From sequence record DRR723986_4788: a DNA stretch of 51,647 nucleotides; one strand, written 5' to 3'. The notes under the pieces were generated by a model, which saw nothing but the letters and a program-made list of their open reading frames with translations, had not been told where the DNA came from and searched no databases. The position numbers and the translations under genes were made by a program. Positions 12,271 to 34,078 of the stretch are shown piece after piece. Within the stretch, counting starts at the first letter, position 1; each line of letters opens with the position of its first letter.

Positions 12271-12272
12271 TT

Positions 12273-19399: not shown

Positions 19400-19400
19400 T

Positions 19401-19808: not shown

Positions 19809-21050
19809 CTACTTCCCGTATACGGCGCGGCCTTTCAACAGGCAGCCATTATTTGAGGCAGAAATCGTCTCTGCCATGACTCGAGTAATGGAACTGGCAA
19901 TCTGCTCAACTAGAAGTGGTACAACGCTATTTCCAAACTGGCGATACGCTTGGGTGTCAGAGACTACTTGTGGGAAGCCGTTGTCGTGACCAAATAGAGT
20001 GGCATATCTGTCTACGTATCCGAGCAAATACTTTGCTTCCTCGGGCGTAATTCGCCGTGGATTCTTCCAACCCTCCTGCTTTATCAGGATTTCAGAGCCA
20101 TCCTTGTGATAACGAGCGCTCATCGTTCTAGCCACGTCCTTGCCTGTATTGAGGCCGTATCCAAAGCCATTTCCTTTAGCTTCATGCTTGGCGCGATAGT
20201 CCCTTAAATACTTCCAGAGCTTGTTGGAAAGCATGTACTTCTTGTCCGGCTCTGACTTTGAGAGTATGTCGGCAAGGACGGGGACATGATCGATTTCTGG
20301 ATCCGGCCACCGAAATTGTATTTGATCCTCTCGACCAAATACGCGGCGATCAAAGCAAACGATAAATATTCGCTCTCTCTTTTGTGGAACCCAATGCCGA
20401 GCGTTGATTACTTTGTGATAAACAATGTAGTCCCGATCAAGCAAGCTCTCCTCAATGACCTGCCATGTTCTGCCTTTGTCATGTGATTTCAGGTTTTTTA
20501 CGTTCTCGAGAAAGAGAACTGGAGGGCGCTTTGCATCAACGATGTCTAGTATCGTGAAAAAGAGGTTGCCCTGCTTTGCGTCCTCAAAGCCGTGGGCTCG
20601 CCCTAAGGAATTCTTCTTCGATACTCCGGCTAGAGAAAAGGGTTGGCATGGAAAGCCAGCGCACAGGACATCATGGTCAGGTACTACCGAAGGTGACAGC
20701 TGGCGAATGTCCTCAGTGTAGACATCTTTATCGCCGTACCATGCTTGGTAGGTCTTTGCTGCGTACTTGTCCCACTCACTGGTGAACACGCAGTTACCAC
20801 CAACAGCGGTCAGCGCACTTCTGAATCCACCTATACCTGCAAACAGATCGATGAAATTAAATGGCACCTGACCGTAGACCCTCTCTGGCTCCTTAGCTTG
20901 AGCGAAGAGCGGTATTTGGTTGGTGTTCTCTTGAGCGAGTGAAATTATTTGTTTCAGATATTCGTTCTGTGAGACCCCGTCTGGGATTGAGTCTCTGAGC
21001 CACGCAAGCTGCGATTCATCAAGATCGCGTATCAGAATGCTGTTTGTCAT
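19809..21050 (-). CDS. dcm: DNA (cytosine-5)-methyltransferase, Dcm/M.EcoRII-like, with N-terminal RHH-like extension
   Basis: FIDLFAGIGG, GFPCQPFS, LENVKNL, QKRERIFIV, RTMSARYHKDGSEILI, YRQFGNSV; start may instead be ATG 21080. Confidence 0.9.
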   Translation of the reverse strand: MTNSILIRDLDESQLAWLRDSIPDGVSQNEYLKQIISLAQENTNQIPLFAQAKEPERVYGQVPFNFIDLFAGIGGFRSALTAVGGNCVFTSEWDKYAAKTYQAWYGDKDVYTEDIRQLSPSVVPDHDVLCAGFPCQPFSLAGVSKKNSLGRAHGFEDAKQGNLFFTILDIVDAKRPPVLFLENVKNLKSHDKGRTWQVIEESLLDRDYIVYHKVINARHWVPQKRERIFIVCFDRRVFGREDQIQFRWPDPEIDHVPVLADILSKSEPDKKYMLSNKLWKYLRDYRAKHEAKGNGFGYGLNTGKDVARTMSARYHKDGSEILIKQEGWKNPRRITPEEAKYLLGYVDRYATLFGHDNGFPQVVSDTQAYRQFGNSVVPLLVEQIASSITRVMAETISASNNGCLLKGRAVYGK

Positions 21051-21060
21051 CTCTTGATCC

Positions 21061-21098
21061 CTGGGAAGTATTGATATCATGATATCAGTTATTCCCAG
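21061..21098. promoter_or_regulatory. Palindromic putative operator upstream of dcm
   Basis: CTGGGAA-N4-TGATATCATGATATCA-N4-TTCCCAG, with a perfect 16-bp central palindrome at 21072-21087. Confidence 0.65.
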
Positions 21099-21519
21099 AT
21101 ATCCACAGCAGTGGCAGATTGCTATGCTCGAAAATACTACACGTGCTGGAATTTCGACCAGACTAGAAAGGTGGGCAGTGGTGCACCTCGACTCTGTAAA
21201 CTAGGAAAGTAGATTTGCCAGTTCTCGATCGCTGTAACTGCCTGCTTGAGGAGATGGAAGGGGCGCGAATGGGGGCGTCACATCTTATGCAGTCAAAAAA
21301 AATTATATAAATCAGAGGGATAAGGGGGCAGTTCGATTGGCTCCAACTCAAGCGAACTAGTATTTCACCTAAGGTCTGACGGAATTCATGTTCAAATCTA
21401 CAGTAGTTACTCTATCACCGCATACGTGGCCCAAGGGAGTTCCGACAGAAATCACCGCTGCAAGCGGACTGAATCGCCCCGGGTTTGTCGGAGGCTCCAT
21501 ATCTTGAGAGGATGGAGCT

Positions 21520-21840
21520 ATGAGCAAATCAAAACGATACTCCCCGGAGTTCCGGGAACGGGCGGTCCGCATGCTGCTTGACCACAAATCTGAATACGAC
21601 TCGGAATGGGCGGCGATGACCGCCATCGCTGTGAAGCTGGGCTGTACAGCCGAGACTTTGCGGTCGTGGGTCAGGCAAGCGGAGAAGGACCTCGGTCTTC
21701 GCGACGGCGTCACTAGCGACGAGCGGAAGCGCCTCAAGGATCTAGAACGGGAGAACCGTGAGCTGAAGCGCGCTAACGAGATTCTCCGTAAGGCTTCTGC
21801 TTATTTTGCCCAGGCGGAGCTCGACCGCCGACCGAAGTGA
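21520..21840 (+). CDS. IS3 transposase OrfA
   Basis: [16 protein letters not shown], leucine zipper [26 protein letters not shown]. Confidence 0.92.
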
Positions 21841-22739
21841 TGGTGTCGTTTATAGACGATCACCGTGAGGAGTACGGGGTCGAGCCGATCTGTAGCCAGT
21901 TGCCGATTGCCCCGTCCACCTTCTACGACCATCAGGACAAGCGCAGCCACCCGGAGCGGCGGTCAAGCCGCGCCAAGCAGGATGATGTCCTGTGCCCGGA
22001 GGTCCAGCGGGTCTGGGAGGAAAACTTCAAGGTATACGGCGCCCATAAGGTCTGGAAGCAGCTAAACCGAGAGGACTTCGAGGTGGCCCGCTGTACGGTC
22101 GAACGGCTGATGAAGCGCCTGGGACTGGAAGGCGCCAGGCGTGGCAGGGGCTGCCGGACGACGATTCCGGATACCGGAGCGGACCGGCCTGCTGACCTGG
22201 TGCAACGCCAGTTTGTGGCAGATCGTCCTAACCAGCTGTGGGTGGCCGACATCACCTACGTGGCGACCTGGCGTGGATTCGCTTATGTGGCCTTCGTCAT
22301 CGACGTGTTTTCCCGCCACATCGTTGGCTGGCGGGTGGCCAGCTCGATGCGCACGGACCTGGTGCTGGATGCTCTGGAACACGCTGTGTGGGCCCGTGGC
22401 GGTGCACAGGGCGTGATACACCACAGCGACAGGGGAAGTCAGTATCTGTCGATCCGCTACTCCGAGCGGCTGCCGGAGGCCGGCATGGAGTCTTCAGTGG
22501 GGAGCCGGGGCGACTCTTACGACAACGCCCTGGCCGAGACCATCAACGGTTTATACAAGACGGAGGTTATTCGACCACGCGGCCCTTGGCGCACCGTGGA
22601 CGAGGTGGAATACGCAACGCTGGAATGGGTTGACTGGTTCAACAACCGGCGTCTGCTGAAACCTATCGGTGATATCCCGCCGGTAGAATTGGAATTGGCG
22701 TATTATCGCCAGGAGGAAGAGTCAGCCATTGCGGCCTGA
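21837..22739 (+). CDS. IS3 transposase OrfB (DDE domain; normally fused to OrfA by -1 frameshift)
   Basis: [31 protein letters not shown]. Confidence 0.92.
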
Positions 22740-22779
22740 CTCAAACAAACGAGCCTCCGGAATACCCGGGGCGATTCAA

Positions 22780-22842
22780 AAAGATCTTGTAGTCTTTTTC
22801 CCTGGGCACTGCATTCCTTGCTTGAATTGCCGTTATGGGCAT
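22780..22842 (-). pseudogene. 5' remnant (21 codons) of a P4-type tyrosine integrase, truncated at the IS3 end
   Basis: AGGAGG RBS and ATG 22842 give MPITAIQARNAVPREKDYKIF, resembling P4-like integrase arm-binding N-termini; expected position and orientation next to att. Confidence 0.75.
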
Positions 22843-23030
22843 TGGTGACCTCCTGTCGTCCATCAATGGTGGGGGCACCTGATACTGATGGGGAGATGTA
22901 CCCCCAACCCGTACCCCCGATTAGCAAGGATATTCTCGCATGCTGCAGGACGTTATCAGGTGCCTACGAACCACAAATCCCCTGAGAATCAGGGGTTTGT
23001 GGACGTAGTGAGATGTTGCAGGATAAATGA

Positions 23031-23049
23031 TTGGTGGAGGCGGCGGGAG
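23031..23049 (-). repeat. att site: copy of ssrA 3' end at the island A/B junction
   Basis: TTGGTGGAGGCGGCGGGAG identical to 33686-33704. Confidence 0.92.
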
Positions 23050-23181
23050 CCAAATTATTGATGTAACCCTTTGATATTATTGGGGATGATGTCCGGTAGT
23101 TTGGGGAACCGGGGCCACTGTTCCCCAAATTGTGCTAAGCCGGGTTCAAATCCCGCTTATGCAACGGGTTCAATTCCCGAC

Positions 23182-23313
23182 TTACGGCTTGCCCCGGTAA
23201 AGGTCCCGGAGTAGTTGTTGCTTCCGTTCTTCCAGAATCTTTACCTCCCGGCGTAGTTGTTCCTTCCGGTGGGCTAACCGTTCCGTTTGTCCTGGTCTGT
23301 TCCTTTGAGTCAT
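23182..23313 (-). CDS. Small coiled-coil hypothetical protein (43 aa)
   Basis: GGAGG RBS (23322-23326) and ATG 23313; MTQRNRPGQTERLAHRKEQLRREVKILEERKQQLLRDLYRGKP. Confidence 0.5.
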   Translation of the reverse strand: MTQRNRPGQTERLAHRKEQLRREVKILEERKQQLLRDLYRGKP

Positions 23314-23659
23314 AAGCTGGTCCTCCGCATCTTTGGATTTTACCACCACCAGGGGGTCTACCTGTAGCACCTGGCTACGTGGGGGGAGGGGGCTTGGGTC
23401 CGAACCCTAGCGCAAGCCCCGGGCTAGCGGAGAGTCAAACCACGTGTGAGACACGGCCCCAAAAAGTGCTAGGGGCCGAGATTCCTAGCCCACAAGCCCA
23501 TACCAAACCGAATGGTCGCATCTGACGTTCCCCGGGTGGTGGGAAGGTGATTCAATGCCGCGCTGTATCACCTGTGTTGTGGCGACCTTTTGAATCCGCG
23601 CCTCAAAGCGGACAGTTTTCGGGAATGTTTGAATCTTCACTAGGGGGCCAGGAATGACT

Positions 23660-23733
23660 CGCTAACACGTCAATAACCACCTCAGCTTGCTGTGTCTGGC
23701 GCCGAAGGAGTGAGGTTGATTGACTTGTTAGAC
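23660..23733 (-). other. Integron attC recombination site (74 bp)
   Basis: Minus strand R'' GTCTAAC, 5 nt, L'' AATCAACC ... L' GGTTATT, 5 nt, R' GTTAGCG; L'' has the extra unpaired C; starts 25 bp after the acyltransferase stop. Confidence 0.8.
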
Positions 23734-23758
23734 TCCGTCTCCACAAATTATCCTAAAA

Positions 23759-24898
23759 CTATCTAAGGAGTTTGGTAGAAAAATACTTCGCTAAAGATAT
23801 GGAATACTTGTCAATAGTTACCTCAAAGGCCCAAGAAAAAGCAAAGCAAATTACTAGATAAGAAGAAAATATAAACAGCAAAGAATATTCAGATAGTGGG
23901 AGTGTGATGTATAGATAGCTAGTTATTGATGGCAGCACTATGAAATGAACTAAGTATAGAGGAAATGATATCCGACCAAGGAACTGAATGGACTTTGATT
24001 CAAGAAATCTTTTTCCTACGCCATTGACTACCGCTAATACGATTAGTAACGCTGACACTGTATTGTAGAAAGTTTTCTTATCAAATATGACGCCACCAAA
24101 TAAATTTATATCGGGTAAAAGCTGATATACCGGAACTTTGCTTTGAAATGCACCAAAAAATAATCCTGCAATTAGCGCGGATAGAGCATATCCTCTGCTG
24201 ACCCTAAATCTATTTAGGAGAGCGCCAATGAAAATGGAAATGTAATAAATAGATTCGTTTTTATAAACCCAATACAACAAAAGAATTGCGAAAGATAACG
24301 TCAATATCTCGTATCTAGTCGGCTTGCACAAATAGTACACAAGTAGAAAAATGGATCCTAGAAATTCAATTTTTAAGGTCCAAAGAGGTGGGTTTAGTAG
24401 CCCGTCTCCATACAATATTGATTTATAAGTTGCCAACTCAAAATAGTTAGAGAATGTTATTCCTTCGGGGAAAAAATTGCTCAGCCAGCTTGTTGATCCA
24501 GAAATTTCAGCCGCTTCCGTATTATAAAATCCGCCCATTTCGTAGATTACATAGGACAGAGTAACAGATGCAGCTATTGGTAAATTTAAGCGAATGTATC
24601 GACCCCATAATCGGCTTTTAATCGCATCTAAATTATTTCTGTAATACGGCATCGATAGTACAAACCCGGAAAGAACGAAAAAAATAAGTACAGCCAAATG
24701 GCCGTTATAAGATAGAGATATTAATGGAGTCTGAAGTAGTTCAAAGAGCTTACTTGGATTGCTATTCTCAGAAAAAATATCCGGATAATTCCTATGAAGA
24801 AGCATAGGCGTAAAAGCACATGCAAAGTGAGCTAACGCCACATTAAGAGCAGCTAACCCTCTGAGTCCGTCAACGGGCTTGTTATGGATCATATTCAT
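23759..24898 (-). CDS. Acyltransferase-3 (OafA/YrhL-like) membrane O-acyltransferase, low-GC cassette cargo
   Basis: DGLRGLAALNV, AVLIFFVLSGFVL, RYIRL, LWTLKIE, LGRISFPLYLVH; many TM helices. Confidence 0.88.
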   Translation of the reverse strand: MNMIHNKPVDGLRGLAALNVALAHFACAFTPMLLHRNYPDIFSENSNPSKLFELLQTPLISLSYNGHLAVLIFFVLSGFVLSMPYYRNNLDAIKSRLWGRYIRLNLPIAASVTLSYVIYEMGGFYNTEAAEISGSTSWLSNFFPEGITFSNYFELATYKSILYGDGLLNPPLWTLKIEFLGSIFLLVYYLCKPTRYEILTLSFAILLLYWVYKNESIYYISIFIGALLNRFRVSRGYALSALIAGLFFGAFQSKVPVYQLLPDINLFGGVIFDKKTFYNTVSALLIVLAVVNGVGKRFLESKSIQFLGRISFPLYLVHFIVLPSITSYLYITLPLSEYSLLFIFSSYLVICFAFSWAFEVTIDKYSISLAKYFSTKLLR

Positions 24899-25202
24899 AA
24901 TAGCTTTTAACTCTATTGGAGCCTAACATCGAGCTACAGAGAACGGGGTTGTTAAGACGTTCCCACTCAACGCAGATTTGGCTTATTTGGTAAATTGCCT
25001 CAAGATCAATCTCCTGGCAAATTCTTTTGGCGCGTTTAACGGTGGACTAGAGGCCATTTATTGGCCGAAAATGATGCTTAGTTAGCGCCCACGATTAGGC
25101 GAAAGCGGGCTTGCCCCAACAGTGCATGGAAGGGGGTTTTGCTTCCCGCTTGTATGGCCGGAAGCAGGACCCACATTGCTTAGATTGCTGCCGCTGCCGT
25201 CG

Positions 25203-26912
25203 TCACCCTATCCAACCTATAGACGCAAAAGTTTCGGAGCCCCCGCGTTCTAGCATTAGCTCCGTTGCGGACAAGACGGCCATTAGCCCGTCTATTTTCA
25301 TTTGGCCGGACCCGGATAGGCCGGCGTCGTCTTTAGCGAACCGCCTACCTTGCGGCCCGTCTTCAAGGCGTAAATTTTGAATGTTGAAAGACAACAACGG
25401 GGAGTGAACTACCCGTAGTTTTTGGTCTAACACCATTGCCTCTAACGCGTCATAGGCCCTTACCAGGGTCCACCCTTGTTTAACTTCTTCAAACTGCCCA
25501 TGCCCTATTACTTCCTGTTCCAACCGGGGCACAAAACCACTCCGTCCGTGGCGGTCCCCTCCGCATAAGGACCCGTAACCGCCTATGCCGGATAGCCGGA
25601 TAGAAGCGATTACCGCGGCGTCTAGGGCGTCTACGGTGTCGTATAGGGTTAGTTCGTCACACGCTATAGCCTTGTCATAAATGGCCCGCAGGAAGTCCGG
25701 GGCGGCGGTGTATCCGTGGCGGGAGAGATATTGCTTTACCCGGACGCACAACACCCCGGGGCTTTCCGGGTTGTCCCACCAGGCAAAGGCAACCGCAAAG
25801 GGGTCATTTACCCCGCCCGGGTCTAGTGCAACGGCCCTGGGTTTAGCGGCAGGGTCTAGGGGGACCGGGACGCCTTCCCACCCGCTTTGTAATACGGACC
25901 GGCCTACGGACCCTTCGTTGGGTTCGATACCTAACCGCTGGCTAAGTAACCGGGCTAGGGTAGCGGGGGACTCGGTACGCTTTGCCTCCGCAAACTCCCG
26001 GGCCATTTCCGCGGGGTCCATTGTTCCGCCAGGTACGCAAGAGGGCATACCCCGCCACCATTGTCCCGGGTCCTCGGGGTCTAGGTCCTGCCGGTGGGTA
26101 GGCCATTCGAAAAGTACCGGGAGGAACGACGGGTCGTGTATTTTCCCGTCCCGTACTTGTCGGGCGTAATTCAACAACTCGGACCACACCCCGGCAGACT
26201 TCTCCGGGGGCGAAGTTGATATATGAATTTCCAAGAACTCCGCACCCCAATTACTTCCCCCGCGGCGGGCCTGGTCTAGAACGTTTGCGAACTGTTTACA
26301 TTCCAATGCGCTGCTATGGGTTTCGTCCGAAATGAGGCAAATAGGGCGCCGGCCTATAGCGGAGTCTATTTTTACCGGGGCAATCTCTAGCGTTATCCCC
26401 GACTCTACGTGTACCAACTGCCGCTTGGCCGTGTAGGTGCGGAATTGGTCCTTCAACTCCGGGTCTAACTTGATACTTTCTAATACGTGCTGAAACACAA
26501 TGTCGCTAGTCCGCACGTTGGGGGAGAGAATCATAATCAGGGCCCGGTGGTGTAGCCCCCGCATTGCGTAATCCACCATTAGGGCTTGTGCGAATGCGCT
26601 GACCAAGACGGACTTGCCGCTACCTTTTCCGCATTTGATAAATACCCGGTTTACTTCCCGGTTGCCTTCTTCGTCTAGTTGGCCGAAGACGTAGCGCGTA
26701 ATCTCCCGTTGCCAAGCCATTGCCGTATCCGCCAGCCTTACCCCGGCCCGCATTTGTGACAACGTGAATAAGCCCACCAGGTCCCACATACGTTGGCCCC
26801 TCCCGTCATAGTCGGGGGTGGCCGGTACCATATCTTCCGGGGTGGTCGCTAAGTCCCAACCGGGGTTGGCGGTTGTCCCGATAGGGCGCCGGTACTTCTT
26901 GGGCTTAGTCAT
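25203..26912 (-). CDS. Phage terminase large subunit (HK97/cos-like)
   Basis: MAWQ adenine motif, Walker A GKGSGKS, Walker B LISDETH, nuclease ALDPGGVND and KIDGLMA; ATGA overlap with terS. Confidence 0.85.
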   Translation of the reverse strand: MTKPKKYRRPIGTTANPGWDLATTPEDMVPATPDYDGRGQRMWDLVGLFTLSQMRAGVRLADTAMAWQREITRYVFGQLDEEGNREVNRVFIKCGKGSGKSVLVSAFAQALMVDYAMRGLHHRALIMILSPNVRTSDIVFQHVLESIKLDPELKDQFRTYTAKRQLVHVESGITLEIAPVKIDSAIGRRPICLISDETHSSALECKQFANVLDQARRGGSNWGAEFLEIHISTSPPEKSAGVWSELLNYARQVRDGKIHDPSFLPVLFEWPTHRQDLDPEDPGQWWRGMPSCVPGGTMDPAEMAREFAEAKRTESPATLARLLSQRLGIEPNEGSVGRSVLQSGWEGVPVPLDPAAKPRAVALDPGGVNDPFAVAFAWWDNPESPGVLCVRVKQYLSRHGYTAAPDFLRAIYDKAIACDELTLYDTVDALDAAVIASIRLSGIGGYGSLCGGDRHGRSGFVPRLEQEVIGHGQFEEVKQGWTLVRAYDALEAMVLDQKLRVVHSPLLSFNIQNLRLEDGPQGRRFAKDDAGLSGSGQMKIDGLMAVLSATELMLERGGSETFASIGWIG

Positions 26913-27337
26913 TTGCGGACCGCCTCCGCCCAAACGCCCTTAGTCTTAGACGCTACGGTGGGTTCTTCCTTCACGATAGGTTGGCTACGGACTACGGTTA
27001 GGCCGAGACAAGCCCCCGCTTTTGCCAGGGTGTTTACCACGGTTGGGTAACTCACCATTGCCGGGTTTTTCTTCCCGTCCGGTAGGGTCACACCCTCGAC
27101 AACGATAGACGCCACAATTTCTTGGAGGGCGTGGCTTCCGGCTACGTAGGCCACCACCAGGGGTAGGCGGTCATCGTGCCATAGCCCTTCTTGGTACAGG
27201 TTCTTACAAACGCGCCGGTATTCCACCCGGGCACCTATCGGTAAACAGGAAGGCATTGGGGGTGGTTTCCAAGCCGGTTGTTTGGGTTTGGCGGTAGGTG
27301 ATACCCGAAGGGTCCCCTTTGCGTTTAGTTGGGCCAT
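26909..27337 (-). CDS. Phage terminase small subunit (P27-like)
   Basis: GGAGG RBS and ATG 27337; PPPMPSCL..ARVEYRRV, KKNPA, LGLT; lies between HNH and terL. Confidence 0.75.
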   Translation of the reverse strand: MAQLNAKGTLRVSPTAKPKQPAWKPPPMPSCLPIGARVEYRRVCKNLYQEGLWHDDRLPLVVAYVAGSHALQEIVASIVVEGVTLPDGKKNPAMVSYPTVVNTLAKAGACLGLTVVRSQPIVKEEPTVASKTKGVWAEAVRK

Positions 27338-27348
27338 AAGTGCCTCCG

Positions 27349-27777
27349 TTAGTCCTTCTTGTCCTGGTACCGGCGTAGTAACCGTTCGGCTATCTCGCCG
27401 GCCGTTTGCGGGCTTCCAGGGGCCCGCTTTGGACCCCCGGAATAAAATCCGTGGGTCCCCGTGTGGTCTAGACGCCCCTTCTTTGTTTGGGACTCCCCCC
27501 GCCCCCTTCCGGTACTGCGGGCCCGGAAGGGGTTGTAAGACTCCCGCGTGGTCTTGGTTGAATGGCACGACTGGCACAAACTCTGCCACCCGGCAGGGTC
27601 CCAAAACGTTTGTTGCCAGTTGTCTCCGTGTCCGTGTTTGTGGTCCACGACGCGGGCAGGGGAACCGCAGGTAGCACAGTTGGCATTGGCAGCCAGGAAC
27701 CTAGCCCGGGCCTTTTGCCAACGTGCGGTCCGGTATAGTTTCTTCCGGGCGGCGGTGTCGGGGCTCAACTTAGCCAT
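27349..27777 (-). CDS. HNH endonuclease (HK97 gp74-like terminase cofactor)
   Basis: YRTARWQKARARFL, CATC, VDH, WQSLCQSCHSTKT; ATG 27777 overlaps the upstream stop. Confidence 0.85.
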   Translation of the reverse strand: MAKLSPDTAARKKLYRTARWQKARARFLAANANCATCGSPARVVDHKHGHGDNWQQTFWDPAGWQSLCQSCHSTKTTRESYNPFRARSTGRGRGESQTKKGRLDHTGTHGFYSGGPKRAPGSPQTAGEIAERLLRRYQDKKD

Positions 27778-28222
27778 TGGGCAAACTCGTACATCGGCCA
27801 AGTCCCAGGTACTTCCGGGTTTCCTGGTCCTTAATGAATACCTTTGTTCGTTGGCCGGAGGACTGTTGTAACGCTATATATCCCGCTTCCTCCAACTGAA
27901 TTAGGGCGTTCCGGTAGGTCCAACGGGAGAAACCGCAAGCCGTAATTACTCCGCGGGGTGGCTTGGGGTATTCGGTTTTATGGGGAATCTTCCCGTATAG
28001 GCATAACAACAGGTACGCCTTCGATGCGGGGCTACCTAAGTTGGCTACCCGGCACCATAACGAAAGGGGAATATCCGGGAGCCACAACTTAGATAGGGGA
28101 TCTTCCTTTGGGGCCTGTCCTTGTTCCTGCCCCGCTAGATACTCCCGCTTCAGTCTAGCCAATTCGTTAGCCTGTTCCTCGGATACACGGAATCTCTCTA
28201 TGTCCAATACTTCGTCTACCAC
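27770..28222 (-). CDS. Winged-helix-like DNA-binding protein, candidate replication initiator/regulator
   Basis: C-terminal GFSRWTYRNALIQLEEAGYIALQQSSGQRTKVFI fits a wHTH pattern; GGAG RBS; adjacent to the iteron array. Confidence 0.6.
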   Translation of the reverse strand: MVDEVLDIERFRVSEEQANELARLKREYLAGQEQGQAPKEDPLSKLWLPDIPLSLWCRVANLGSPASKAYLLLCLYGKIPHKTEYPKPPRGVITACGFSRWTYRNALIQLEEAGYIALQQSSGQRTKVFIKDQETRKYLGLGRCTSLPNG

Positions 28223-28325
28223 TACTTAATCTCCCTAATACCTACCTACTAGTTATTAATTAATCTCTATACAGATAAGAAACAGATAGAACAGATTAGA
28301 AACATATATATATGGGACCCGGGTG

Positions 28326-28447
28326 TGAGAAATCTCACTACCCCGTTGAGAAATCTCACCACTACCGTTGAGAAATCTCACCACTACCGGTGAGAAATCT
28401 CACCACCCACTGTTGAGAAATCTCAACACCACTGTTGAGAAATCTCA
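28326..28447. repeat. Six tandem copies of the near-palindrome TGAGAAATCTCA (putative iterons/origin)
   Basis: Copies start at 28326, 28347, 28369, 28391, 28414 and 28436 (period 21-23 bp); AT-rich tract at ~28245-28313. Confidence 0.85.
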
Positions 28448-28467
28448 CCACTCCAATTCCGTCCTGG

Positions 28468-30261
28468 TTAGGCATTGCCGGCGGCCCTCCGCGGTTCGTT
28501 AGCAAGGGCCGTTATCCGTTTGTAGAAGTCCGTCCCCCGTTCGTCTGCATACACTTCCGGGTAGTCGTAACGTTTAACGTCTACCCGGATTGGGCCACCC
28601 GCTACGGCCAGGGCGGACGCTTCCATTTCCGCCCGGGCTACCGCCAGTTGTTCGTCCGCGGTTGCGATAGGCACACAAAACATTAGGGCGTCGTGTACGG
28701 TTGCGATTGCCGGCACCCCCGCATTGGTGCAACGGATAGTCGCAACTCTGAGAATGTCGCTACCGGTACTTTGAATAATCCAATTCCCGTTTGACCGTTC
28801 GTTTAGGTCCTGCCCGGGGCCTACCTGTATCCGCCAACCGCAGTTGGTATATACCGGGAGGGAGAGGGCGGCCCGGTGCCGGACTTCTTCTATGAATTTC
28901 CAAAAGTCCCGGTATACCTCGAAATGCCGGTGTAGTAGTTCCCGGGCCTCTACCGTGTGAACTCCGGCCTTTAGCGCTAGGGTCTGTTCGCCCATACCGT
29001 ATTGGACTCCGAGGACCAGGGACTTACAGACGGTCCGTATGTCTCCGTGTGTCGCTTTCGTCGCACCCGTAGGGGCTAGGCCGGCGTCTATCGCAAACGC
29101 CATATAGGGGTCGCCGGACTCGTAGGCGGCCCGTAACTTTGCGTCGCCGGATAGGTGGGCCGCTATCGCTAGTTCTTGGCTAGCGAAGTCCAAGTAGGCC
29201 AACGTGTAATCCTCCGGGGCACGTAGGAAGGACCGGGACCACATAGACAAACCGAACAGATACCGGCTATTGCTAGGTTGGCTCCGGGCGGTCTTGCTAG
29301 TGAAGGGCCGCAACGGGGCCCGGCTACGTCCGTCCGGGGATACTTGAACTTTGTTGTTTCGGAATTGGGCCAGGGCCACGCGTAACTCCCGCAACGGGTA
29401 CAAGTGCGGGTAGGACTTCGCCATATCGGAGAACGTGGATTCCGATAGGGCAAGGGCGCCAGTTGGCAATCGCGGCCAGGGCGTCCCGGTGCGGCGTAGG
29501 TAGTCCGCGAACCGGGCGGAACTGAACTTGTCTCCCTCGAAGACGTGGTAGCCGTGGGCCGTATCTACTTCCGCAATTAACGCGGACTTAATGCTATCGA
29601 AGTTGGCCCGTACCTGGTCCCACGTGGGCACGTCTACCGGCAAGCCCTCCGCGGCCATACGGATACACTCCGCCATAAACCGGCCGCGGATAATGGCTTG
29701 GCCTATAGCCTTCGTGGGGTCCTTTGTCGGGGCCTCCGAGACTATTAGCGGCAGGTCCACCCCCAACAGGGCCACGGTGTCCTCTACGTCTTCCGCACAG
29801 TATTCAAGGATTATCGGCACGTCTTCCGCGGTCCACTCCCCGGAACCTATCATTACCTGCATGTGCTTTTTGTGCCCGGTGTCGCGGACCTTTAACCCCC
29901 GGCGTTTGATACTCGCCAACAGGGAGCCCGCGGGGTAGCCGGCGCCATTCACTAGCCGGCGTTCCTCCACCATTAGGTCCAACCATTTCGGGGGAAGGGG
30001 CCAACCGAGTTTAAGGAAACACCCGGCCTCCGCCTCCACGTTATAGGCTACAAACAATTCGGAACCGTCACTGGCAAAGGGGCAGTCTGTTAAGCCTCCG
30101 GGGGCCAGGACTAGCCGGACCCCCGTTAGGACTTCTTGCGCCACCATACAAACAACGTTCTGCGGTAAGACGTGGGCCCGGTCTAACTCATACTCAAAAT
30201 CCAGGACCCACACCCGGGCAATCCCTAGCCCCGCGAAATACTCCTTTGCCTGTAAGTCCAC
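28468..30261 (-). CDS. Family-A DNA polymerase (3'-5' exo plus polymerase, no 5'-3' exo)
   Basis: ExoI LDFEY, ExoIII YCAEDV; motif A LDFASQELAIAAHLSGD, motif B RTVCKSLVLGVQYGMG, motif C VHDAL. Confidence 0.9.
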   Translation of the reverse strand: MDLQAKEYFAGLGIARVWVLDFEYELDRAHVLPQNVVCMVAQEVLTGVRLVLAPGGLTDCPFASDGSELFVAYNVEAEAGCFLKLGWPLPPKWLDLMVEERRLVNGAGYPAGSLLASIKRRGLKVRDTGHKKHMQVMIGSGEWTAEDVPIILEYCAEDVEDTVALLGVDLPLIVSEAPTKDPTKAIGQAIIRGRFMAECIRMAAEGLPVDVPTWDQVRANFDSIKSALIAEVDTAHGYHVFEGDKFSSARFADYLRRTGTPWPRLPTGALALSESTFSDMAKSYPHLYPLRELRVALAQFRNNKVQVSPDGRSRAPLRPFTSKTARSQPSNSRYLFGLSMWSRSFLRAPEDYTLAYLDFASQELAIAAHLSGDAKLRAAYESGDPYMAFAIDAGLAPTGATKATHGDIRTVCKSLVLGVQYGMGEQTLALKAGVHTVEARELLHRHFEVYRDFWKFIEEVRHRAALSLPVYTNCGWRIQVGPGQDLNERSNGNWIIQSTGSDILRVATIRCTNAGVPAIATVHDALMFCVPIATADEQLAVARAEMEASALAVAGGPIRVDVKRYDYPEVYADERGTDFYKRITALANEPRRAAGNA

Positions 30262-30266
30262 GCCCG

Positions 30267-30896
30267 TTACTCCTGCCCGGTTAGTTGGCGGATTAGGGGG
30301 TGGTCTACGTCCGCGACGATGTTAGACGCGCCAAATGCCAGTTTGAGAATGTCCGGCATTTGTTCCCGGGGCCACAACGGGGCCGCGGTAATGCCGGGGG
30401 CCTTGTACAAGTCATACCGGCCCGCTGACATATTGGCCGCCATACGGACCCAATTTCCGGTGGCTACCTTCAAGACGTCCATAGCGGAGTCGTTCCAAGA
30501 ATTTTTAGGCCCGTCCGTGGAGGGCGTGGGTACCGGCCATAGGAACGGGACCGACTGGCGGTTGACGCACAGGACCAACAGTTTTACCGCGTGGTCCCCG
30601 GGCAGTTGTGCGGCCACCCCCGGGTCTAACAAGTAGGTTTCCCGGGCCTCCCTTACTTCGATTATCGGGGCGGAGAGGCGGAGTTTGGCGTGGGCCTGGA
30701 AGAACTCCTGTTTATTCGGCTTGCGGACCGAAATACCTAACAGGACCTTCTCCACCCCCAACTGTCCGACGTCGGTTGACGCGTCTACCGCATACCGCGC
30801 CGGGTCAAACAGGTTGTCTAGCGGGTCTTGGGTTGTCGCATCTTCCGCGGGTACTTCTTCCGGGATAATGCTTTCTACTTTGCTGTTACTGGTCAT
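30267..30896 (-). CDS. Hypothetical protein upstream of PolA (possible SSB/accessory factor)
   Basis: Acidic N-terminus; VRKPNKQEFF, PFLWPV, NSWNDSA, WVRM; 5 bp from the polymerase start. Confidence 0.7.
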   Translation of the reverse strand: MTSNSKVESIIPEEVPAEDATTQDPLDNLFDPARYAVDASTDVGQLGVEKVLLGISVRKPNKQEFFQAHAKLRLSAPIIEVREARETYLLDPGVAAQLPGDHAVKLLVLCVNRQSVPFLWPVPTPSTDGPKNSWNDSAMDVLKVATGNWVRMAANMSAGRYDLYKAPGITAAPLWPREQMPDILKLAFGASNIVADVDHPLIRQLTGQE

Positions 30897-31339
30897 TGGT
30901 TATGCCCCTGTGCTTCGATTAGTTGGCGGACGCGTTGCCCAAATGTCCGGACGGTGTGCAACTCGCAACGGTTTTCCCGGAGTAACCTGGTAGTCCGTGG
31001 GTAGTTACTTGCGACTAGGCCGGGGCTGACTCCCATAAAGACCAGGAAGGCGTCCCGTTCTGTGCTGTCCTCGATACGGTCTAGAAGTAATCGCTTAATG
31101 CCGGAGCCGGAGTAGCCCTCGGTATTGCTGGAATTGATTACAAAGACCCGGCCGCCGATGTTGGCAACAATGTCTATGGGTTTTTCCGGTGGCCGGAGCC
31201 TCCGGGGGTAGGGGCATACGTGGTAGGAGTTTGGCGTGGTTTCGACTTCTTCCCCGGTGGCTAGTTTTTGTAGCCCGGCCCGCTTGAGAACTCCCGTTAG
31301 CGGCGGCAAACCGCGTAGGTGTTTGGCGTGTGTATTCAT
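30893..31339 (-). CDS. Hypothetical protein
   Basis: 148 aa; ATGA overlaps with both neighbours. Confidence 0.6.
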   Translation of the reverse strand: MNTHAKHLRGLPPLTGVLKRAGLQKLATGEEVETTPNSYHVCPYPRRLRPPEKPIDIVANIGGRVFVINSSNTEGYSGSGIKRLLLDRIEDSTERDAFLVFMGVSPGLVASNYPRTTRLLRENRCELHTVRTFGQRVRQLIEAQGHNQ

Positions 31340-31581
31340 TCGGGGAAGCCCTCCTTAGCGATACGACAAAAGTATTCGTACACTTCGTCGTCGTTAAAAA
31401 GTTGCTTCTCCCCGCGGCTCCGGCCCTTGATAGGGGTGGGAAAACGTGGGTCCCGCTTGATAACAGTTATAAAGTATTTCCGCCCGAATAGTTTTCTATC
31501 CCCGCGGTTCCCGTACTTCTCTAAGATGCCCTCGCAATCAATGATTGGCGGCAGGGCGTGTGCTTGTGCATACATTGTCAA
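31336..31581 (-). CDS. AlpA/excisionase-like DNA-binding protein
   Basis: IKRDPRFPTPIK...LFNDDEVYEYF resembles AlpA/Xis; 81 aa; GGAG RBS. Confidence 0.65.
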   Translation of the reverse strand: MTMYAQAHALPPIIDCEGILEKYGNRGDRKLFGRKYFITVIKRDPRFPTPIKGRSRGEKQLFNDDEVYEYFCRIAKEGFPE

Positions 31582-31682
31582 CGTCTCCCTCTGTAGTTGA
31601 GTGACGCTAACTAAACTATGCGGCGGACCTTTTTGGTTCTAACCCACAACTATAGAAAATCAGTAGGGTTGTGGGTTTGACT

Positions 31683-32270
31683 CTAGCGGGGGTGCCTTCT
31701 TTTGTAGGACTTTATGATGCGGGCGGTATCTTCGCCGTATATGAGGGAGAAGACTTGATACGCCTTGCCGGTTACATTCCCGTTGATTGATAGGTGCGGG
31801 AAGTGCGACTGCCAAGCGCGGGCGTACATATCGAAAGTAACGGCCTCTACGTTACTCCGCCCGGACCGTCTCCCGGGCCGTTGGGCCTCTAATGCTTCGA
31901 CACAACCTATTTGTAGGTCTTCCAGGACCGCGGCAAGTACCTCGGTTTTTTGGGCGGAAAGCCCTATCAGAATCCGGTCCTCCGGGTTCATATAGTTAAG
32001 ACTATGGACCAATGCTTCCGCGGCTTTCTTCACGTCCGCGACTGCCGCGGAGTCTCGTAGTTGTTCCTGGTCGCGGTCTATCCGCCGGTATTTTTCCAAG
32101 ATTCCGCGGACAATTGGGTCCGCTTGGATAGCCGAAAGTCCTTGTATTTCGATTAGGAACCCCCGCAATGTTTCTAGGCTTTCCCGGGGGAGTATCCGTT
32201 GTAGTTCTTCAACTCCGAAGGCGGGTTGGGTATGCCCCGGGACAAACTGCGTGTGTTTAATCTTTGGCAT
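31683..32270 (-). CDS. Hypothetical protein coupled to the integrase
   Basis: 195-aa ORF overlapping the integrase 3' end. Confidence 0.6.
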   Translation of the reverse strand: MPKIKHTQFVPGHTQPAFGVEELQRILPRESLETLRGFLIEIQGLSAIQADPIVRGILEKYRRIDRDQEQLRDSAAVADVKKAAEALVHSLNYMNPEDRILIGLSAQKTEVLAAVLEDLQIGCVEALEAQRPGRRSGRSNVEAVTFDMYARAWQSHFPHLSINGNVTGKAYQVFSLIYGEDTARIIKSYKRRHPR

Positions 32271-33492
32271 TGTCGCGGGCCTCGTCTAGTTTGTTTGCCC
32301 ACCAGACAAGGACCCGGCCGGCGCCTTCTGCCGGTGCTACCCGGAAATAGGCCCCTTCAACTTCGCTGGCAACTTGGTGGTCTAGTACCGCTTCAATCCA
32401 ACTCTTAGCAAACAGGGGGCGTCCGTCTTCCCCTATCGCGTTTTCCGCTTGGGTCTTCAACGAACTACGCCAACCGTGGGGTACGTGCCGGCCGCGTAGT
32501 CCCAGGCATACCCGTAAGTGTTTATCTATCGTCTCCGGGCGTATATGCCCAACCTTGTTAGGTGACGCGAAGACTTTACCGGTGTGCTTGGCCCGGGGTA
32601 CCCGCTTTAGCAGGGCTACCGCTTGGGGTGGTAGGTGTATTACCTGGTCCCCGCGGGTATCGTCTTTGACCTTCTTGCGGGCCCGGGGGATTCTCCACAC
32701 CCCCGCGTCTATGTCGAACTCCGACCATTCCGCTTCTACGACGTCGGAAGCCCGCTGACACGTGTACGCTTGGAACTCGGTTATAACCCGCACTAGAAAA
32801 CTTGCGTCGCTGGTTTCGTTTGCTTCCAGGACCGCGGCCAGGTCTTCCCACGCTACCAGGGCGGGTAGGTTCTTCTTCCGGGTCTTCCGGGACGTGGCGG
32901 AGTGTATCCGGGCAACCGAGGGAACCGGGTTGGCCGCTACCACCCCCAAACCCACCAGGTAATCAAACAACTTGGAAAGGGCGGACCGAATCTTACTCTC
33001 GGTATCCGGCAACTTCGCCCGGACGGGGGCCAGGTAGGTATATAACTCCGCCGGCGTTATCTCCCCGACTGGCATAGCCCATAGCGGGGTAGGTTTAACG
33101 TGGTTATCTACCCGGCCTTGCATATTGTCCGCGTACTTCTCGGACCAACTACCGGTAGGGCCGGAGACGATCCGGTGGAAGACTTCCCAAACGGTACCTA
33201 ACGCGGAGGCGCTAGAAAGCCCTCCTACCGCCTTTTGGGGGACGGGGGCTAGTTTCTCGGGGTTAGCCCGCAAATGGCTTCCCGCGGCTCTGAGACGCTT
33301 TAAATCGGCTTTAAGGACCCTTCTACGGATAGTCTCTAGGGGGTGGTCCTTGTATTGGCCCGCGGGTAGCTTCACCCGCTGGTAACAGGTAACGGAACCG
33401 TCCCGGTTCTTCCGCCAATACAGTTGGTCTACGTCGCTACGCTTTGTGCCGGCTTCCAAGCCGTTGACTTCCGCCAGTGTAAGTAATGCCAT
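32257..33492 (-). CDS. Tyrosine recombinase/integrase
   Basis: Catalytic set CQRASDV (R), KKVK (K), HGWR, LDH, GAY; adjacent to the ssrA att. Confidence 0.9.
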   Translation of the reverse strand: MALLTLAEVNGLEAGTKRSDVDQLYWRKNRDGSVTCYQRVKLPAGQYKDHPLETIRRRVLKADLKRLRAAGSHLRANPEKLAPVPQKAVGGLSSASALGTVWEVFHRIVSGPTGSWSEKYADNMQGRVDNHVKPTPLWAMPVGEITPAELYTYLAPVRAKLPDTESKIRSALSKLFDYLVGLGVVAANPVPSVARIHSATSRKTRKKNLPALVAWEDLAAVLEANETSDASFLVRVITEFQAYTCQRASDVVEAEWSEFDIDAGVWRIPRARKKVKDDTRGDQVIHLPPQAVALLKRVPRAKHTGKVFASPNKVGHIRPETIDKHLRVCLGLRGRHVPHGWRSSLKTQAENAIGEDGRPLFAKSWIEAVLDHQVASEVEGAYFRVAPAEGAGRVLVWWANKLDEARDNAKD

Positions 33493-33639
33493 TCCCTAAA
33501 ATCCGGTAATCGGTCCAACTCGGTTAGGGAACGGGGGCCCTGTTCCCTAGAACTAGAAAGACGCTACTTTACCACAGGTTTGACAGTTGTTTAGCTAATA
33601 GTTAGCTTTGGGCCTGTATTTACAGGGATTTACGGACAC

Positions 33640-33662
33640 AAAAAAGGCCCCGCTTGGGGGCC
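33640..33662 (-). terminator. Rho-independent terminator downstream of ssrA, supplied by island A
   Basis: Minus strand GGCCCC-CAAGC-GGGGCC-TTTTTT. Confidence 0.7.
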
Positions 33663-33686
33663 CGCTTGAATGGCTAAAATGTGGTT

Positions 33687-34078
33687 TGGTGGAGGCGGCG
33701 GGAGTTGAACCCGCGTCCGCCAGTACTCTGCCTTTGGCTCTACATGCTTAGATTCCGTCGATTAATTTAACCGCAAACAGCCCGACGGGCAGGACGTTCT
33801 TGGCGATCCCGATAATTGTTTAGCGGCTCAACCTCGAGCAAATATCACCGCGATCCAGTTCTGTATGACAGTCAGTAGCGCGGGGCTGGAACCTTGCTAA
33901 AGACCGCCAGGGCCGAAGCACCTGGATGGTGTTACAAAGGGCTACTTACGCAGCCAGTTGTGCACCGTAGTTGTCGTCATTGGCAACTAATAGTTTGCAG
34001 CTTTGGATTAACGTGATTGGCTACCATCACGGCATGCACCTCAGGGTTCGTTACCGTCGTCGAATCCGTATCGCCCCC
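33687..34078 (-). ncRNA. ssrA: tmRNA, 392 nt, tag peptide ANDDNYGAQLAA
   Basis: 5' GGGGGCG...GGATTCGAC pairs with 3' CGCCTCCACCA (G3-U); T-arm GCGGGTTCAACTCCCGC; tag ORF at 33946-33984. Confidence 0.97.

What the first reader, a model, noticed from the sequence alone, without database searches (positions are those of the whole stretch)
23031..33704. Capsid-less, terminase-complete, PolA-encoding satellite-like element at ssrA
Seen: a 10.65-kb unit between 19-bp att repeats, all genes co-oriented: integrase, hypothetical, AlpA-like, two hypotheticals, PolA, iteron array, wHTH, HNH, TerS, TerL, cargo. The ORFs are intact and tightly coupled. No portal, protease, capsid, tail, primase or helicase is recognisable. 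Established: PICIs typically carry a primase/Rep and at most TerS, cf-PICIs carry capsid and portal with their terminase, and P4-like elements carry alpha primase-helicase, Sid and Psu. This element matches none of them. Inference: it may be a distinct satellite class that copies itself with its own polymerase and uses its own HNH/TerS/TerL to load DNA, perhaps as concatemers, into helper procapsids.
Basis: partly seen in the sequence, partly recalled or inferred. Interest (0 to 1): 0.88.

Follow-up and report, generated by a model that had tools for sequence, protein, structure and literature searches.

The report
Capsid-less phage satellite with own terminase
A 10.7-kb mobile element sitting in the tmRNA gene of a marine bacterium carries its own DNA polymerase and a complete DNA-packaging enzyme but no capsid genes, and it has relatives elsewhere with the same layout, so it most likely spreads by filling capsids made by another virus-like element.

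Summary
Exact 19-bp repeats at 23031-23049 and 33686-33704 bound a co-oriented gene set at the 3' end of ssrA: integrase, four unknown ORFs, family-A polymerase, six 22-bp iterons with an AT-rich stretch, a winged-helix protein, HNH, TerS, TerL and a low-GC acyltransferase. No portal, protease, capsid, tail, primase or helicase was found, and no remnant of one. "AlpA-like" is not confirmed.

It is not a one-off deletion. L013, a circular 8,291-bp viral contig, is gene for gene collinear with it and has nothing else. L002 (14.4 kb, bounded by tRNA-type repeats) and L001 (about 18 kb, tRNA-Val) also end at TerL without capsid genes. Other TerL relatives (L008, L012) continue into portal and capsid genes, and the two states are mixed in the TerL tree.

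Best reading (0.6): a phage satellite, a reduced branch of capsid-forming-PICI-like elements, that replicates from its own origin and packages itself with its own terminase into borrowed procapsids. The helper, the cos site and excision are inferred. It fails the PICI, cf-PICI and P4 definitions, and I found no published description. New variant of a known kind.

The parts
23031..23049 (.). attL core, a 19-bp direct repeat identical to the 3' end of ssrA
23104..23125 (.). arm palindrome GGGAAC-N10-GTTCCC, 55 bp inside attL; likely a binding site for a recombination protein (inferred)
   Evidence: the pattern occurs only twice in the window, once in each arm; 0.02 expected
23050..23758 (.). 709-bp stretch without a supported gene; a 62-aa ORF at 23182-23370 has no family hit
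23759..24898 (-). cargo: membrane acyltransferase (Acyl_transf_3 / O-acetyltransferase type), GC 0.365 against 0.569 for the backbone
25203..26912 (-). large terminase subunit TerL; ATG at 26912 overlaps the TerS stop as ATGA; the open frame reaches 26933
26909..27337 (-). small terminase subunit TerS (P27 / Terminase_4 type), 142 aa
27349..27801 (-). HNH endonuclease of the kind that accompanies HK97-type terminases
   Evidence: phrog_589 5.7e-19; 58% identical to the L013 HNH
27770..28222 (-). 150-aa winged-helix protein, putative replication initiator
   Evidence: weak hits only; lies directly beside the iterons
28255..28452 (.). putative origin: AT-rich stretch 28255-28320 plus six 22-bp iterons 28322-28452
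28468..30261 (-). family-A DNA polymerase with a 3'-5' exonuclease domain, 597 aa
30267..30896 (-). 209-aa conserved partner of this polymerase family; function unknown, possibly a single-strand DNA-binding protein (weak)
30893..31339 (-). 148-aa ORF, no family
31336..31581 (-). 81-aa ORF in the position of an AlpA/excisionase-type gene; not confirmed
31683..32270 (-). 195-aa ORF, no family
32257..33492 (-). tyrosine integrase, 411 aa
33527..33547 (.). arm palindrome GGGAAC-N9-GTTCCC, 139 bp inside attR
33645..33663 (-). terminator-like hairpin with a T run, brought by the element just after the restored ssrA 3' end
33686..33704 (.). attR core, overlapping the last 18 bases of ssrA
33687..34078 (-). 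ssrA (tmRNA), the integration target

Best explanation
This is an integrated phage satellite that belongs to a small, old family of 8-18-kb elements. The family keeps integration, replication and the whole packaging enzyme (HNH, TerS, TerL) but has no capsid genes.

Proposed life cycle:
1. The tyrosine integrase placed the element in the 3' end of ssrA. The element restores the last 18 bases of the gene and supplies a terminator (shown by the sequence).
2. After induction it excises as a 10,655-bp circle (inferred).
3. The winged-helix protein binds the six iterons and opens the AT-rich stretch. The element's proofreading family-A polymerase and its 209-aa partner copy the DNA, with a helicase and primase taken from the host or the helper (inferred).
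4. TerS recognises the element's own cos or pac site. TerL, helped by HNH, cuts the DNA and pumps it into procapsids made by a helper. The helper also supplies tails and lysis (inferred). Because the genome is small, it would fill either small capsids or full-size capsids as multimers.
5. The low-GC acyltransferase is cargo that probably modifies a surface polysaccharide (inferred from the family).
For: Anatomy: see the observation check.

Intact enzymes:
- TerL keeps every invariant column of the 11-sequence clade alignment. These include D203/E204 (which I read as Walker B) and D371, D460 and D548 (the nuclease acidic residues, on my reading). The nearly invariant G102-K103-G104-K107 (Walker A, on my reading) is also kept.
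- PolA keeps all invariant columns of a 23-sequence alignment. On my reading these cover D21/E23 and D158 (exonuclease), D358/E363, R409/K413/Y421/G422 and H523/D524.

Recurrence of the capsid-less layout:
- L013 has an exact 127-bp terminal overlap, giving a circle of 8,291 bp. It holds only int, 156 aa, an HTH_17 ORF of 60 aa, 153 aa, the 209-aa homologue, PolA, 172 aa, 4.5 iterons of 22 bp, HNH, TerS and TerL. Identity to the window is 25% (int), 43% (209 aa), 39% (PolA), 58% (HNH), 26% (TerS) and 38% (TerL). Its int-proximal spacer carries a tRNA/tmRNA-like 3' end followed by a hairpin and a T run.
- L002 is 14,453 bp and ends in a 27-bp direct repeat that reads as a tRNA T-arm plus acceptor end. 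It holds int, a primase of 1,026 aa, HNH, TerS, TerL and an acyltransferase-SGNH gene. It has no capsid hit.
- L001 lies between lon/tRNA-Val/int and ppiD. It holds a primase-helicase, HNH, TerS, TerL and five unknown small ORFs.

ORFs downstream of TerL in L001, L003 and L004 share no family with each other, as expected of variable cargo. tblastn of 28 proteins encoded downstream of TerL in relatives (portal, capsid, adaptor and unknown ORFs) found nothing in the window better than E 0.047, and nothing in 23050-25202.

The clade is not that of any deposited phage or plasmid. TerL reaches at most 25% identity and PolA at most 27% in 50,697 phage and 72,556 plasmid records.
Against: - No helper is known, because no genome is held for the window.
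- No cos or pac site was identified.
- Nothing shows that this copy excises or is packaged. No sequencing run was listed.
- The Pfam and NCBIfam matches for TerS and HNH are below the curated cut-offs; the identifications rest on PHROGs and on homology to relatives.
- No helicase or primase was recognised, so autonomous replication is uncertain.
- In the TerL tree the capsid-less rows (window, L001, L002, L003, L013) are interleaved with portal-bearing rows (L008, L012). Repeated loss by decay would produce the same pattern.
- The low-GC acyltransferase and 709 bp of non-coding DNA lie exactly where head genes lie in relatives.
- None of the 3 MAGs that carry such elements has a PF04860 portal. 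That fits no resident helper of that type, or simply incomplete MAGs.
- L013 comes from a collection of predicted viral contigs. A circular assembly shows a circle or tandem copies, not encapsidation.
- Unknown ORFs of 243-271 aa in L001 and L002 cannot be strictly excluded as very divergent structural proteins.
Confidence: 0.6

Rival explanations
1. It is a decaying remnant. A capsid-forming satellite or small prophage lost its head genes when the acyltransferase cassette came in, and the element is no longer packaged or transferred.
For: Relatives with a TerL of the same clade go on into portal and capsid genes (L008, L012), and the two states are mixed in the tree. Cargo of GC 0.365 plus 709 bp without a supported gene sits at the place of the head genes. 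Polymerase-bearing relatives such as L017 (circular, 10,743 bp), L016, L024, L020 and L028 carry capsid genes.
Against: L013 is a circular element with no cargo and no gap, and it is collinear with the window at 25-58% identity. The capsid-less layout has therefore been kept over a long time. L002 and L001 are further complete capsid-less elements with different replication modules. All catalytic columns of TerL and PolA are kept. The att repeats are exact and both arms carry the same rare palindrome. No remnants of head genes were found.
Confidence: 0.15
2. It is a satellite of a satellite. The element's terminase fills the small capsids made by related capsid-forming elements (the L017, L008 or L012 kind) in the same cell. 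Tails and lysis still come from a phage.
For: The only capsid-bearing relatives of this TerL clade found here lie on small contigs with satellite-like replication genes, not in any of 50,697 phage records, where identity is at most 25%. Capsid-less members measure 8.3, 10.7, 14.4 and about 18 kb. That is the size range of the capsid-forming relatives, such as L017 at 10.7 kb, so unit-length packaging would fit.
Against: No capsid-forming partner is seen in the window. The three MAGs with capsid-less elements have no PF04860 portal. L008 and L012 are incomplete contigs that could be pieces of ordinary phages. Uncultured phages with this TerL clade may simply be missing from the phage collection.
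Confidence: 0.1
3. It is an integrative, self-replicating island whose terminase module does not serve its own transfer. The module might instead block packaging by an infecting phage (defence), or be inert.
For: The neighbouring DNA at the same att site is a defence island (Mza system plus an EcoRII-type restriction-modification system). Satellites are known to interfere with helper packaging (abstracts; passages of PMC9618062).
Against: None of the 6 element ORFs scanned against PADLOC gave a hit. A full HNH-TerS-TerL set with intact ATPase and nuclease columns, conserved next to int and an origin in elements found as circles, is what self-packaging needs. Interference needs less: TerS alone is enough in PICIs (passages of PMC10085698).
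Confidence: 0.08

Closest known systems
Capsid-forming PICIs (cf-PICIs; Alqurainy et al., abstract of 10.1101/2022.09.08.507074 seen in the listing; SatelliteFinder model, passages of PMC10085698)
   Same: A small integrative element with int, a regulator region, a replication module, then HNH, TerS and TerL of HK97 type. It has no tail or lysis genes. Relatives of both its TerL and its PolA sit in elements that also carry portal, protease and capsid genes (L008, L012, L017, L016, L024).
   Different: It has no capsid, portal, protease, head-tail adaptor or connector, so at most 5 of the 11 core components against the 9 required. Replication uses a family-A polymerase with an iteron-binding protein instead of a primase-replicase. 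It would have to borrow capsids as well as tails.
PICIs of Gram-negative bacteria and SaPIs (SatelliteFinder PICI model, PMC10085698)
   Same: Integrase-first layout, own origin, TerS, dependence on a helper's capsids, and accessory cargo after the packaging genes.
   Different: PICIs carry TerS at most and use the helper's TerL. In that model terL is a marker that separates cf-PICIs from PICIs. There is no primase-replicase and no capsid-morphogenesis gene here, so 2-3 of 5 core components.
VEIMEs, marine virion-encapsidated integrative mobile elements (Eppley et al. 2022, PMC9618062, passages)
   Same: Marine hosts (the window's flanks look Halieaceae-like). Elements of 5-17 kb with integrases and no major capsid gene. 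Some carry TerS and DNA polymerase genes (module 6) or HNH (module 2). They were found packaged as concatemers in full-size capsids, which is a ready model for step 4.
   Different: In the passages I read, that paper reports small terminase subunits and 'motor-like ATPases' and expects the large subunit to come from the helper. I did not see its datasets, so whether any VEIME has this TerL is open. Encapsidation of the present family is not shown.
P4-like satellites
   Same: An integrative element without structural genes that uses a helper's capsids.
   Different: No alpha-type primase-helicase hit here. No hit to a Sid, Psu or Delta family was listed. P4 uses the helper's terminase (recalled).
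PICMIs (PMC10803314, abstract only) and cos-type SaPIs such as SaPIbov5 (recalled, and as quoted in PMC4936722)
   Same: No capsid-remodelling genes, and packaging into helper-size capsids as multimers.
   Different: Those elements rely on the helper's terminase and carry only a packaging signal or TerS. This one brings the whole enzyme.

Membership tests
cf-PICI (SatelliteFinder: at least 9 of 11 core components, no tail or holin) | integrase | tested here: met
   phrog_1 1.2e-32, PF00589 1.3e-6
cf-PICI | regulator of AlpA/MerR/Stl type | tested here: inconclusive
   The 81-aa ORF has no hit even at E<=10 and its model has pLDDT 51. L013 and L002 have an HTH_17 ORF in the same place, but it shows no similarity to the window's ORF.
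cf-PICI | primase-replicase | tested here: not met
   No primase or helicase family among the 12 ORFs in Pfam or PHROGs, nor among the 11 of them sent to NCBIfam. PolA and an iteron-binding protein stand in its place.
cf-PICI | HNH, TerS and TerL | tested here: met
   phrog_589 5.7e-19, phrog_83 1.3e-5, phrog_9 3e-43
cf-PICI | capsid, portal, protease, head-tail adaptor and connector | tested here: not met
   No hit. No unassigned ORF is longer than 209 aa. No remnant found by tblastn with relatives' proteins.
PICI (SatelliteFinder: at least 4 of 5 core components) | int, regulator, primase-replicase, capsid-morphogenesis gene, TerS | tested here: not met
   int and TerS are met, the regulator is inconclusive, and primase-replicase and capsid-morphogenesis genes were not found. 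SatelliteFinder itself was not run.
P4-like satellite | alpha primase-helicase, Sid, Psu, Delta | tested here: inconclusive
   No such hit in Pfam or PHROGs. The P4-specific profiles of SatelliteFinder were not available.
VEIME | found as concatemers inside virus particles | not testable with these tools
   No run was listed for the element. L013's circular assembly fits a circle or tandem copies only.
HK97-type large terminase (TerL_ATPase PF03354 + TerL_nuclease PF20441) | ATPase and nuclease domains with their catalytic residues | tested here: met
   phrog_9 3e-43 over residues 71-567. Relatives carry PF03354 and PF20441. The Walker A, Walker B and acidic nuclease columns are kept. The window's own protein has no Pfam hit at 0.01.
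Family-A DNA polymerase with proofreading | polymerase motifs A, B and C and exonuclease motifs | tested here: met
   PF00476 2.4e-26. The invariant columns of 23 relatives are kept. Motif C reads HDA in all 23. The motif names are my reading of the columns.

The most novel reading that the evidence does not exclude
Three-level parasitism. The capsid-less, terminase-complete elements are satellites of capsid-forming satellites. Their terminase docks on the portal of small capsids built by related cf-PICI-like elements, which in turn steal tails from a phage. The family would then record repeated steps from small phage to capsid-forming satellite to capsid-less 'terminase-only' hyper-satellite.
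Probability: 0.1. Interest if true: 0.9.

Novelty: new variant of a known kind. Interest (0 to 1): 0.7.

Why it matters
Current satellite schemes split elements in two. One kind redirects the helper's terminase and carries TerS at most (PICI, P4, PLE, PICMI). The other kind builds its own capsid and carries the whole packaging set (cf-PICI). A conserved family that brings the full motor but no shell fills the gap between them.

It implies that a foreign TerL can dock on a helper's portal. It would be missed by the PICI and cf-PICI models of SatelliteFinder as described in PMC10085698. It also gives a testable route by which capsid-forming satellites shrink.

The polymerase with its conserved 209-aa partner is a replication module not reported for satellites in the papers I could search. 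The family sits in marine and other environmental Pseudomonadota, where satellite-helper biology is almost unexplored.

Tried and rejected
- Whole-genome search: no genome is held for the window.
- Single-protein scans found no relatives (TerL in genome contigs; PolA in viral contigs). Alignment-based scans did.
- Sequencing runs: none was listed for 24900-33700, so read laying was not used, and neither excision nor expression could be looked at.
- A sample of 400 genomes of the class of G001 (one further genome not scored) gave only the two seed genomes at E<=1e-60.
- The 209-aa protein:
  - The model is good (pLDDT 85.8).
  - Foldseek against the PDB gave nothing at E<=0.001.
  - VIA-align wide gave a best Z of 4.3, below the tool's noise level, with OB-fold single-strand binders among the top rows.
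  - BFVD gave a best E of 4e-3 and TM 0.37-0.44, with some rows named ssDNA-binding protein.
  - I keep 'SSB-like' as a lead only.
- Protein atlas searches for the 195-aa and 209-aa ORFs returned only unnamed clusters.
- The 81-aa ORF folded alone reached pLDDT 51, which is unusable.
- Complex prediction for PolA with the 209-aa protein gave no verdict.
- The Rfam E-value search of L013 and L002 did not name the tRNA/tmRNA-like att fragments.
- Comparing the window's winged-helix protein, 195-aa ORF and 81-aa ORF with the L013 ORFs in the same positions gave no significant similarity. The 148-aa ORF against L013's 153-aa ORF gave only E 0.003 over 27 residues.
- Rejected: prophage, because there are no structural, tail or lysis genes.
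- Rejected: plasmid family, because no close relative exists in 72,556 plasmid records.
- Literature: searches listed no paper describing capsid-less satellites with both terminase subunits. Supplements were not read. Datasets S2-S6 of PMC9618062 may bear on this.


Full report
OBSERVATION

ARAGORN and Rfam place a full-length tmRNA gene at 33687-34078 on the - strand. Its last 18 bases lie inside a 19-bp sequence, TTGGTGGAGGCGGCGGGAG, that recurs exactly at 23031-23049. The two copies are 10,655 bp apart. With up to three mismatches the window holds three matches against 0.07 expected, and none of 100 shuffles reached three.

Between the repeats all supported genes are on the - strand and tightly coupled. 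The order is:
- integrase, 32257-33492
- ORFs of 195, 81, 148 and 209 aa
- a 597-aa family-A polymerase, 28468-30261
- a non-coding stretch with six 22-bp iterons and an AT-rich block
- a 150-aa protein
- HNH, 27349-27801
- TerS, 26909-27337
- TerL, 25203-26912
- an acyltransferase, 23759-24898
- 709 bp without a supported gene

The TerS stop and the TerL start overlap as ATGA. TerS starts at an ATG 11 bases after the HNH stop.

Family scans support the integrase, PolA, HNH, TerS, TerL and acyltransferase calls. For TerS and HNH the Pfam and NCBIfam scores are below the curated cut-offs, and those two identifications rest on PHROGs and on relatives. The 150-aa protein has only weak winged-helix or replication-initiator hints. 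The 81-aa 'AlpA-like' ORF has no hit at all.

None of the 12 ORFs matches a portal, protease, capsid, tail, lysis, primase or helicase family (the 62-aa ORF was not sent to NCBIfam). No unassigned ORF exceeds 209 aa.

FINER ANATOMY

The iteron core GAGAAATCTCA occurs six times, 21-23 bp apart, at 28327-28447. It occurs nowhere else in the window without a mismatch. It is followed by an AT-rich block, and the spacer as a whole has GC 0.41. The 150-aa gene starts right after it. This is the usual build of an iteron origin with its initiator.

A rare palindrome, GGGAAC-N9/10-GTTCCC, occurs only twice in 51.6 kb: 55 bp inside attL and 139 bp inside attR (0.02 expected). That fits protein-binding sites on the two arms of an intact attP.

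A hairpin with a T run at 33645-33663 follows the restored ssrA end. A second one at 22979-22995 follows attL. Each incoming element therefore brought a terminator for ssrA.

GC is 0.57 for the backbone, 0.365 for the acyltransferase and 0.64 for the flanks. The flanks are ordinary chromosome: an Mrp antiporter operon, a lactonase and an oxidoreductase on one side, and an RND pump and a LysR regulator on the other. The MrpD protein is 89% identical to one named from a Halioglobus MAG. The host is therefore probably a marine Halieaceae-like gammaproteobacterium. That is an inference.

RELATIVES OF TerL

The clade is small:
- 13 proteins at E<=1e-3 among 8,000 scored candidates, ten of them at 36-58% identity.
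- In an exhaustive profile search of 1.84 billion representatives, 150 proteins at E<=1e-30 and about 36 rows above roughly 320 bits, fragments included.
- In 50,697 phage records and 72,556 plasmid records, the best TerL identity is 25%.

Alignment-based scans gave 12 loci, and the PolA scan added L013. I annotated their ORFs with Pfam and PHROGs (83 and 61 ORFs; 132; 24). The results:

1. L013 is a viral-collection contig of 8,418 bp with an exact 127-bp terminal overlap, so a circle of 8,291 bp.
   - It holds int, 156 aa, an HTH_17 ORF of 60 aa, 153 aa, a homologue of the 209-aa ORF, PolA, 172 aa, 4.5 iterons of 22 bp, HNH, TerS and TerL, and nothing else.
   - This is the window's gene order one for one. 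The only change is that the iterons and the small protein next to them are swapped.
   - Identity is 25% (int), 43% (209 aa), 39% (PolA), 58% (HNH), 26% (TerS) and 38% (TerL).
   - Its spacer before int carries a tRNA/tmRNA-like 3' end (...GTTCAATTCCCCCCGGCTCCACCA) followed by a hairpin and a T run.
2. L002 is 14,453 bp and ends in a 27-bp direct repeat that reads as a tRNA T-arm plus acceptor end. It holds int, an HTH_17 ORF, a 1,026-aa primase, HNH, TerS, TerL and an acyltransferase-SGNH gene. It has no capsid hit.
3. L001 lies in a 163-kb MAG contig between lon, tRNA-Val and a 302-aa integrase on one side and ppiD on the other, a span of about 18 kb. It holds a DUF2800 protein, an Enc34-type ssDNA-binding protein, an SNF2 helicase, a 1,080-aa primase-helicase, HNH, TerS, TerL and five unknown ORFs of 92-223 aa.
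4. L003 and L004 show no capsid gene in the 3.0 and 3.3 kb held downstream of TerL.
5. L008 and L012 do continue into a portal (PF04860 1.4e-77 and 4.2e-55). L012 also has a protease-capsid fusion and a head-tail adaptor.
6. L005, L006, L007, L009, L010 and L011 are too short to tell. L006 has the order PolA, 142-aa ORF, HNH, TerS, TerL.

ORFs downstream of TerL in L001, L003 and L004 fall in no shared family. tblastn with 28 such downstream proteins found nothing in the window better than E 0.047, and nothing between attL and TerL.

A maximum-likelihood tree of 22 TerL rows (L004 left out because of its intein, L006 and L009-L011 as fragments) groups 17 rows with 99/99 support. Inside that group the capsid-less and portal-bearing loci are interleaved. 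For example, L008 sits in a 100/99 clade with L002. The window pairs with P0001 (57% identity, 100/99), and then with L005 and P0002. The contexts of these nearest relatives are unknown or too short to tell.

RELATIVES OF THE POLYMERASE

PolA belongs to a large family of proteins of about 580-600 aa (506 hits among 8,000 scored candidates; best 59%). All invariant columns are kept in the window. Motif C reads HDA in all 23 aligned members.

Nineteen viral-collection loci carry the family (L013-L031). The 209-aa ORF lies directly upstream of PolA in 14 of the 19: 13 by tblastn plus L026 by blastp. In three of the five misses PolA starts at the contig end.

Contexts of the 19 loci:
- 5 with capsid, portal or protease genes: L016, L017, L020, L024, L028. 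L017 is a 10,743-bp circle with TerL, capsid, portal, int, the 209-aa homologue, PolA and HNH, and no tail genes.
- 3 with marks of true phages: L031 has tail assembly and endolysin genes, and L027 has a tail fibre gene. L030 has the same ORF layout as L027 and was not scanned.
- 1 complete and capsid-less: L013.
- 8 that end at or soon after TerL.
- 2 without packaging genes in view: L018, L019.

So the polymerase module is shared by temperate phages, capsid-forming small elements and capsid-less ones.

INTERPRETATION

The layout int, regulators, replication module, HNH-TerS-TerL, variable cargo, with no capsid genes, recurs in four complete elements. They have two different replication modules and deep sequence divergence. 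That argues against a one-off deletion and for a maintained way of life.

Everything such an element needs for integration, origin firing and DNA cutting and pumping is present and intact. Everything needed to build a particle is absent. The most economical mechanism is therefore that of a satellite that brings its own packaging motor and borrows procapsids, tails and lysis.

Shown: the anatomy, the intactness of the catalytic columns, the recurrence of the layout, and the circular form of L013.

Inferred: induction, excision of this copy, use of the origin, recruitment of a helicase and primase, the identity and kind of the helper, the packaging signal, and whether monomers go into small capsids or multimers into large ones. 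The multimer mode has a precedent in the concatemers of marine VEIMEs (PMC9618062, passages).

The tree suggests repeated change between capsid-bearing and capsid-less states. So I treat the family as a reduced branch of cf-PICI-like elements, not as a wholly new class.

COMPARISON WITH WHAT IS KNOWN

From passages of PMC10085698: the PICI model has five core components, and at least four were found in every element counted. The cf-PICI model has eleven, and at least nine were found. terL together with the head-tail genes is what separates cf-PICIs from PICIs. The window has at most 5 of 11 and 2-3 of 5, so it belongs to neither.

- PLEs are stated not to encode a large terminase (PMC7567579, one passage).
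- The Pseudomonas satellite AH14b has no terminase (PMC4936722, passages).
- VEIMEs have TerS, HNH or DNA polymerase genes in some modules and no capsid gene, and the authors expect TerL from the helper.
- A review of mobilisable elements mentions terminases only as a sign of phage mobilisation (PMC11389934, passages).

Six literature searches listed no description of capsid-less satellites with both terminase subunits. I did not read supplements.

It is a lead that agrees, not independent proof.

VERDICT

- Observation: confirmed.
- First reading: partly supported.
- Novelty: a new variant of a known kind (phage satellites).
- Confidence in the satellite-with-own-terminase mechanism: 0.6.
- Interest: 0.7.

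Noticed in passing
window 9615-23030: A second, older island lies in tandem at the same ssrA site. It is bounded by a degenerate att copy at 9615-9633 (16 of 19 bases, the first 15 identical), has GC 0.49 and has no integrase. It carries an Mza defence system (MzaB-E), an EcoRII-type restriction-modification set (cytosine methylase, Vsr, EcoRII nuclease) and an IS3-family transposase pair at 21520-22739, where the integrase would be expected.
   Followed up: partly
window 23759-24898; L002:11888-13876: Both the window's element and L002 carry a membrane acyltransferase (Acyl_transf_3; L002's has an SGNH domain) as cargo right after TerL. The two proteins did not cluster together at E 1e-4. This may be convergent pick-up of surface-modifying genes.
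   Followed up: partly
L004:499-3375: Among the loci, the TerL closest to the window's (57% over residues 105-562) is interrupted by a LAGLIDADG homing-endonuclease insertion, probably an intein. Several long clade members of 736-929 aa in the representative search match in two stretches and may be similar.
   Followed up: no
window 30267-30896 and L013-L031: A 190-237-aa protein with an N-terminal PFDP..LRL motif and no known family sits directly upstream of this PolA family in 14 of 19 loci. Its confident model (pLDDT 85.8) has no clear structural match, and the weak rows lean towards OB-fold ssDNA-binding proteins.
   Followed up: partly
alignment A2 (window PolA residues 523-525): Motif C of this polymerase family reads H-D-A in all 23 aligned members, where the usual motif (recalled) is H-D-E.
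   Followed up: no
L017:1-10866: A 10,743-bp circular viral contig carries int, the 209-aa homologue, PolA, HNH, TerL, a capsid protein and a portal, but no tail genes. It is a capsid-forming satellite-like element that replicates with a family-A polymerase.
   Followed up: partly
L020:9974-12283; L022:5912-7856: The L020 PolA is 769 aa, and its match to the window's PolA is split by about 470 nt, which suggests an insertion. The L022 TerL is split into two adjacent ORFs, which suggests a frameshift or an assembly error.
   Followed up: no
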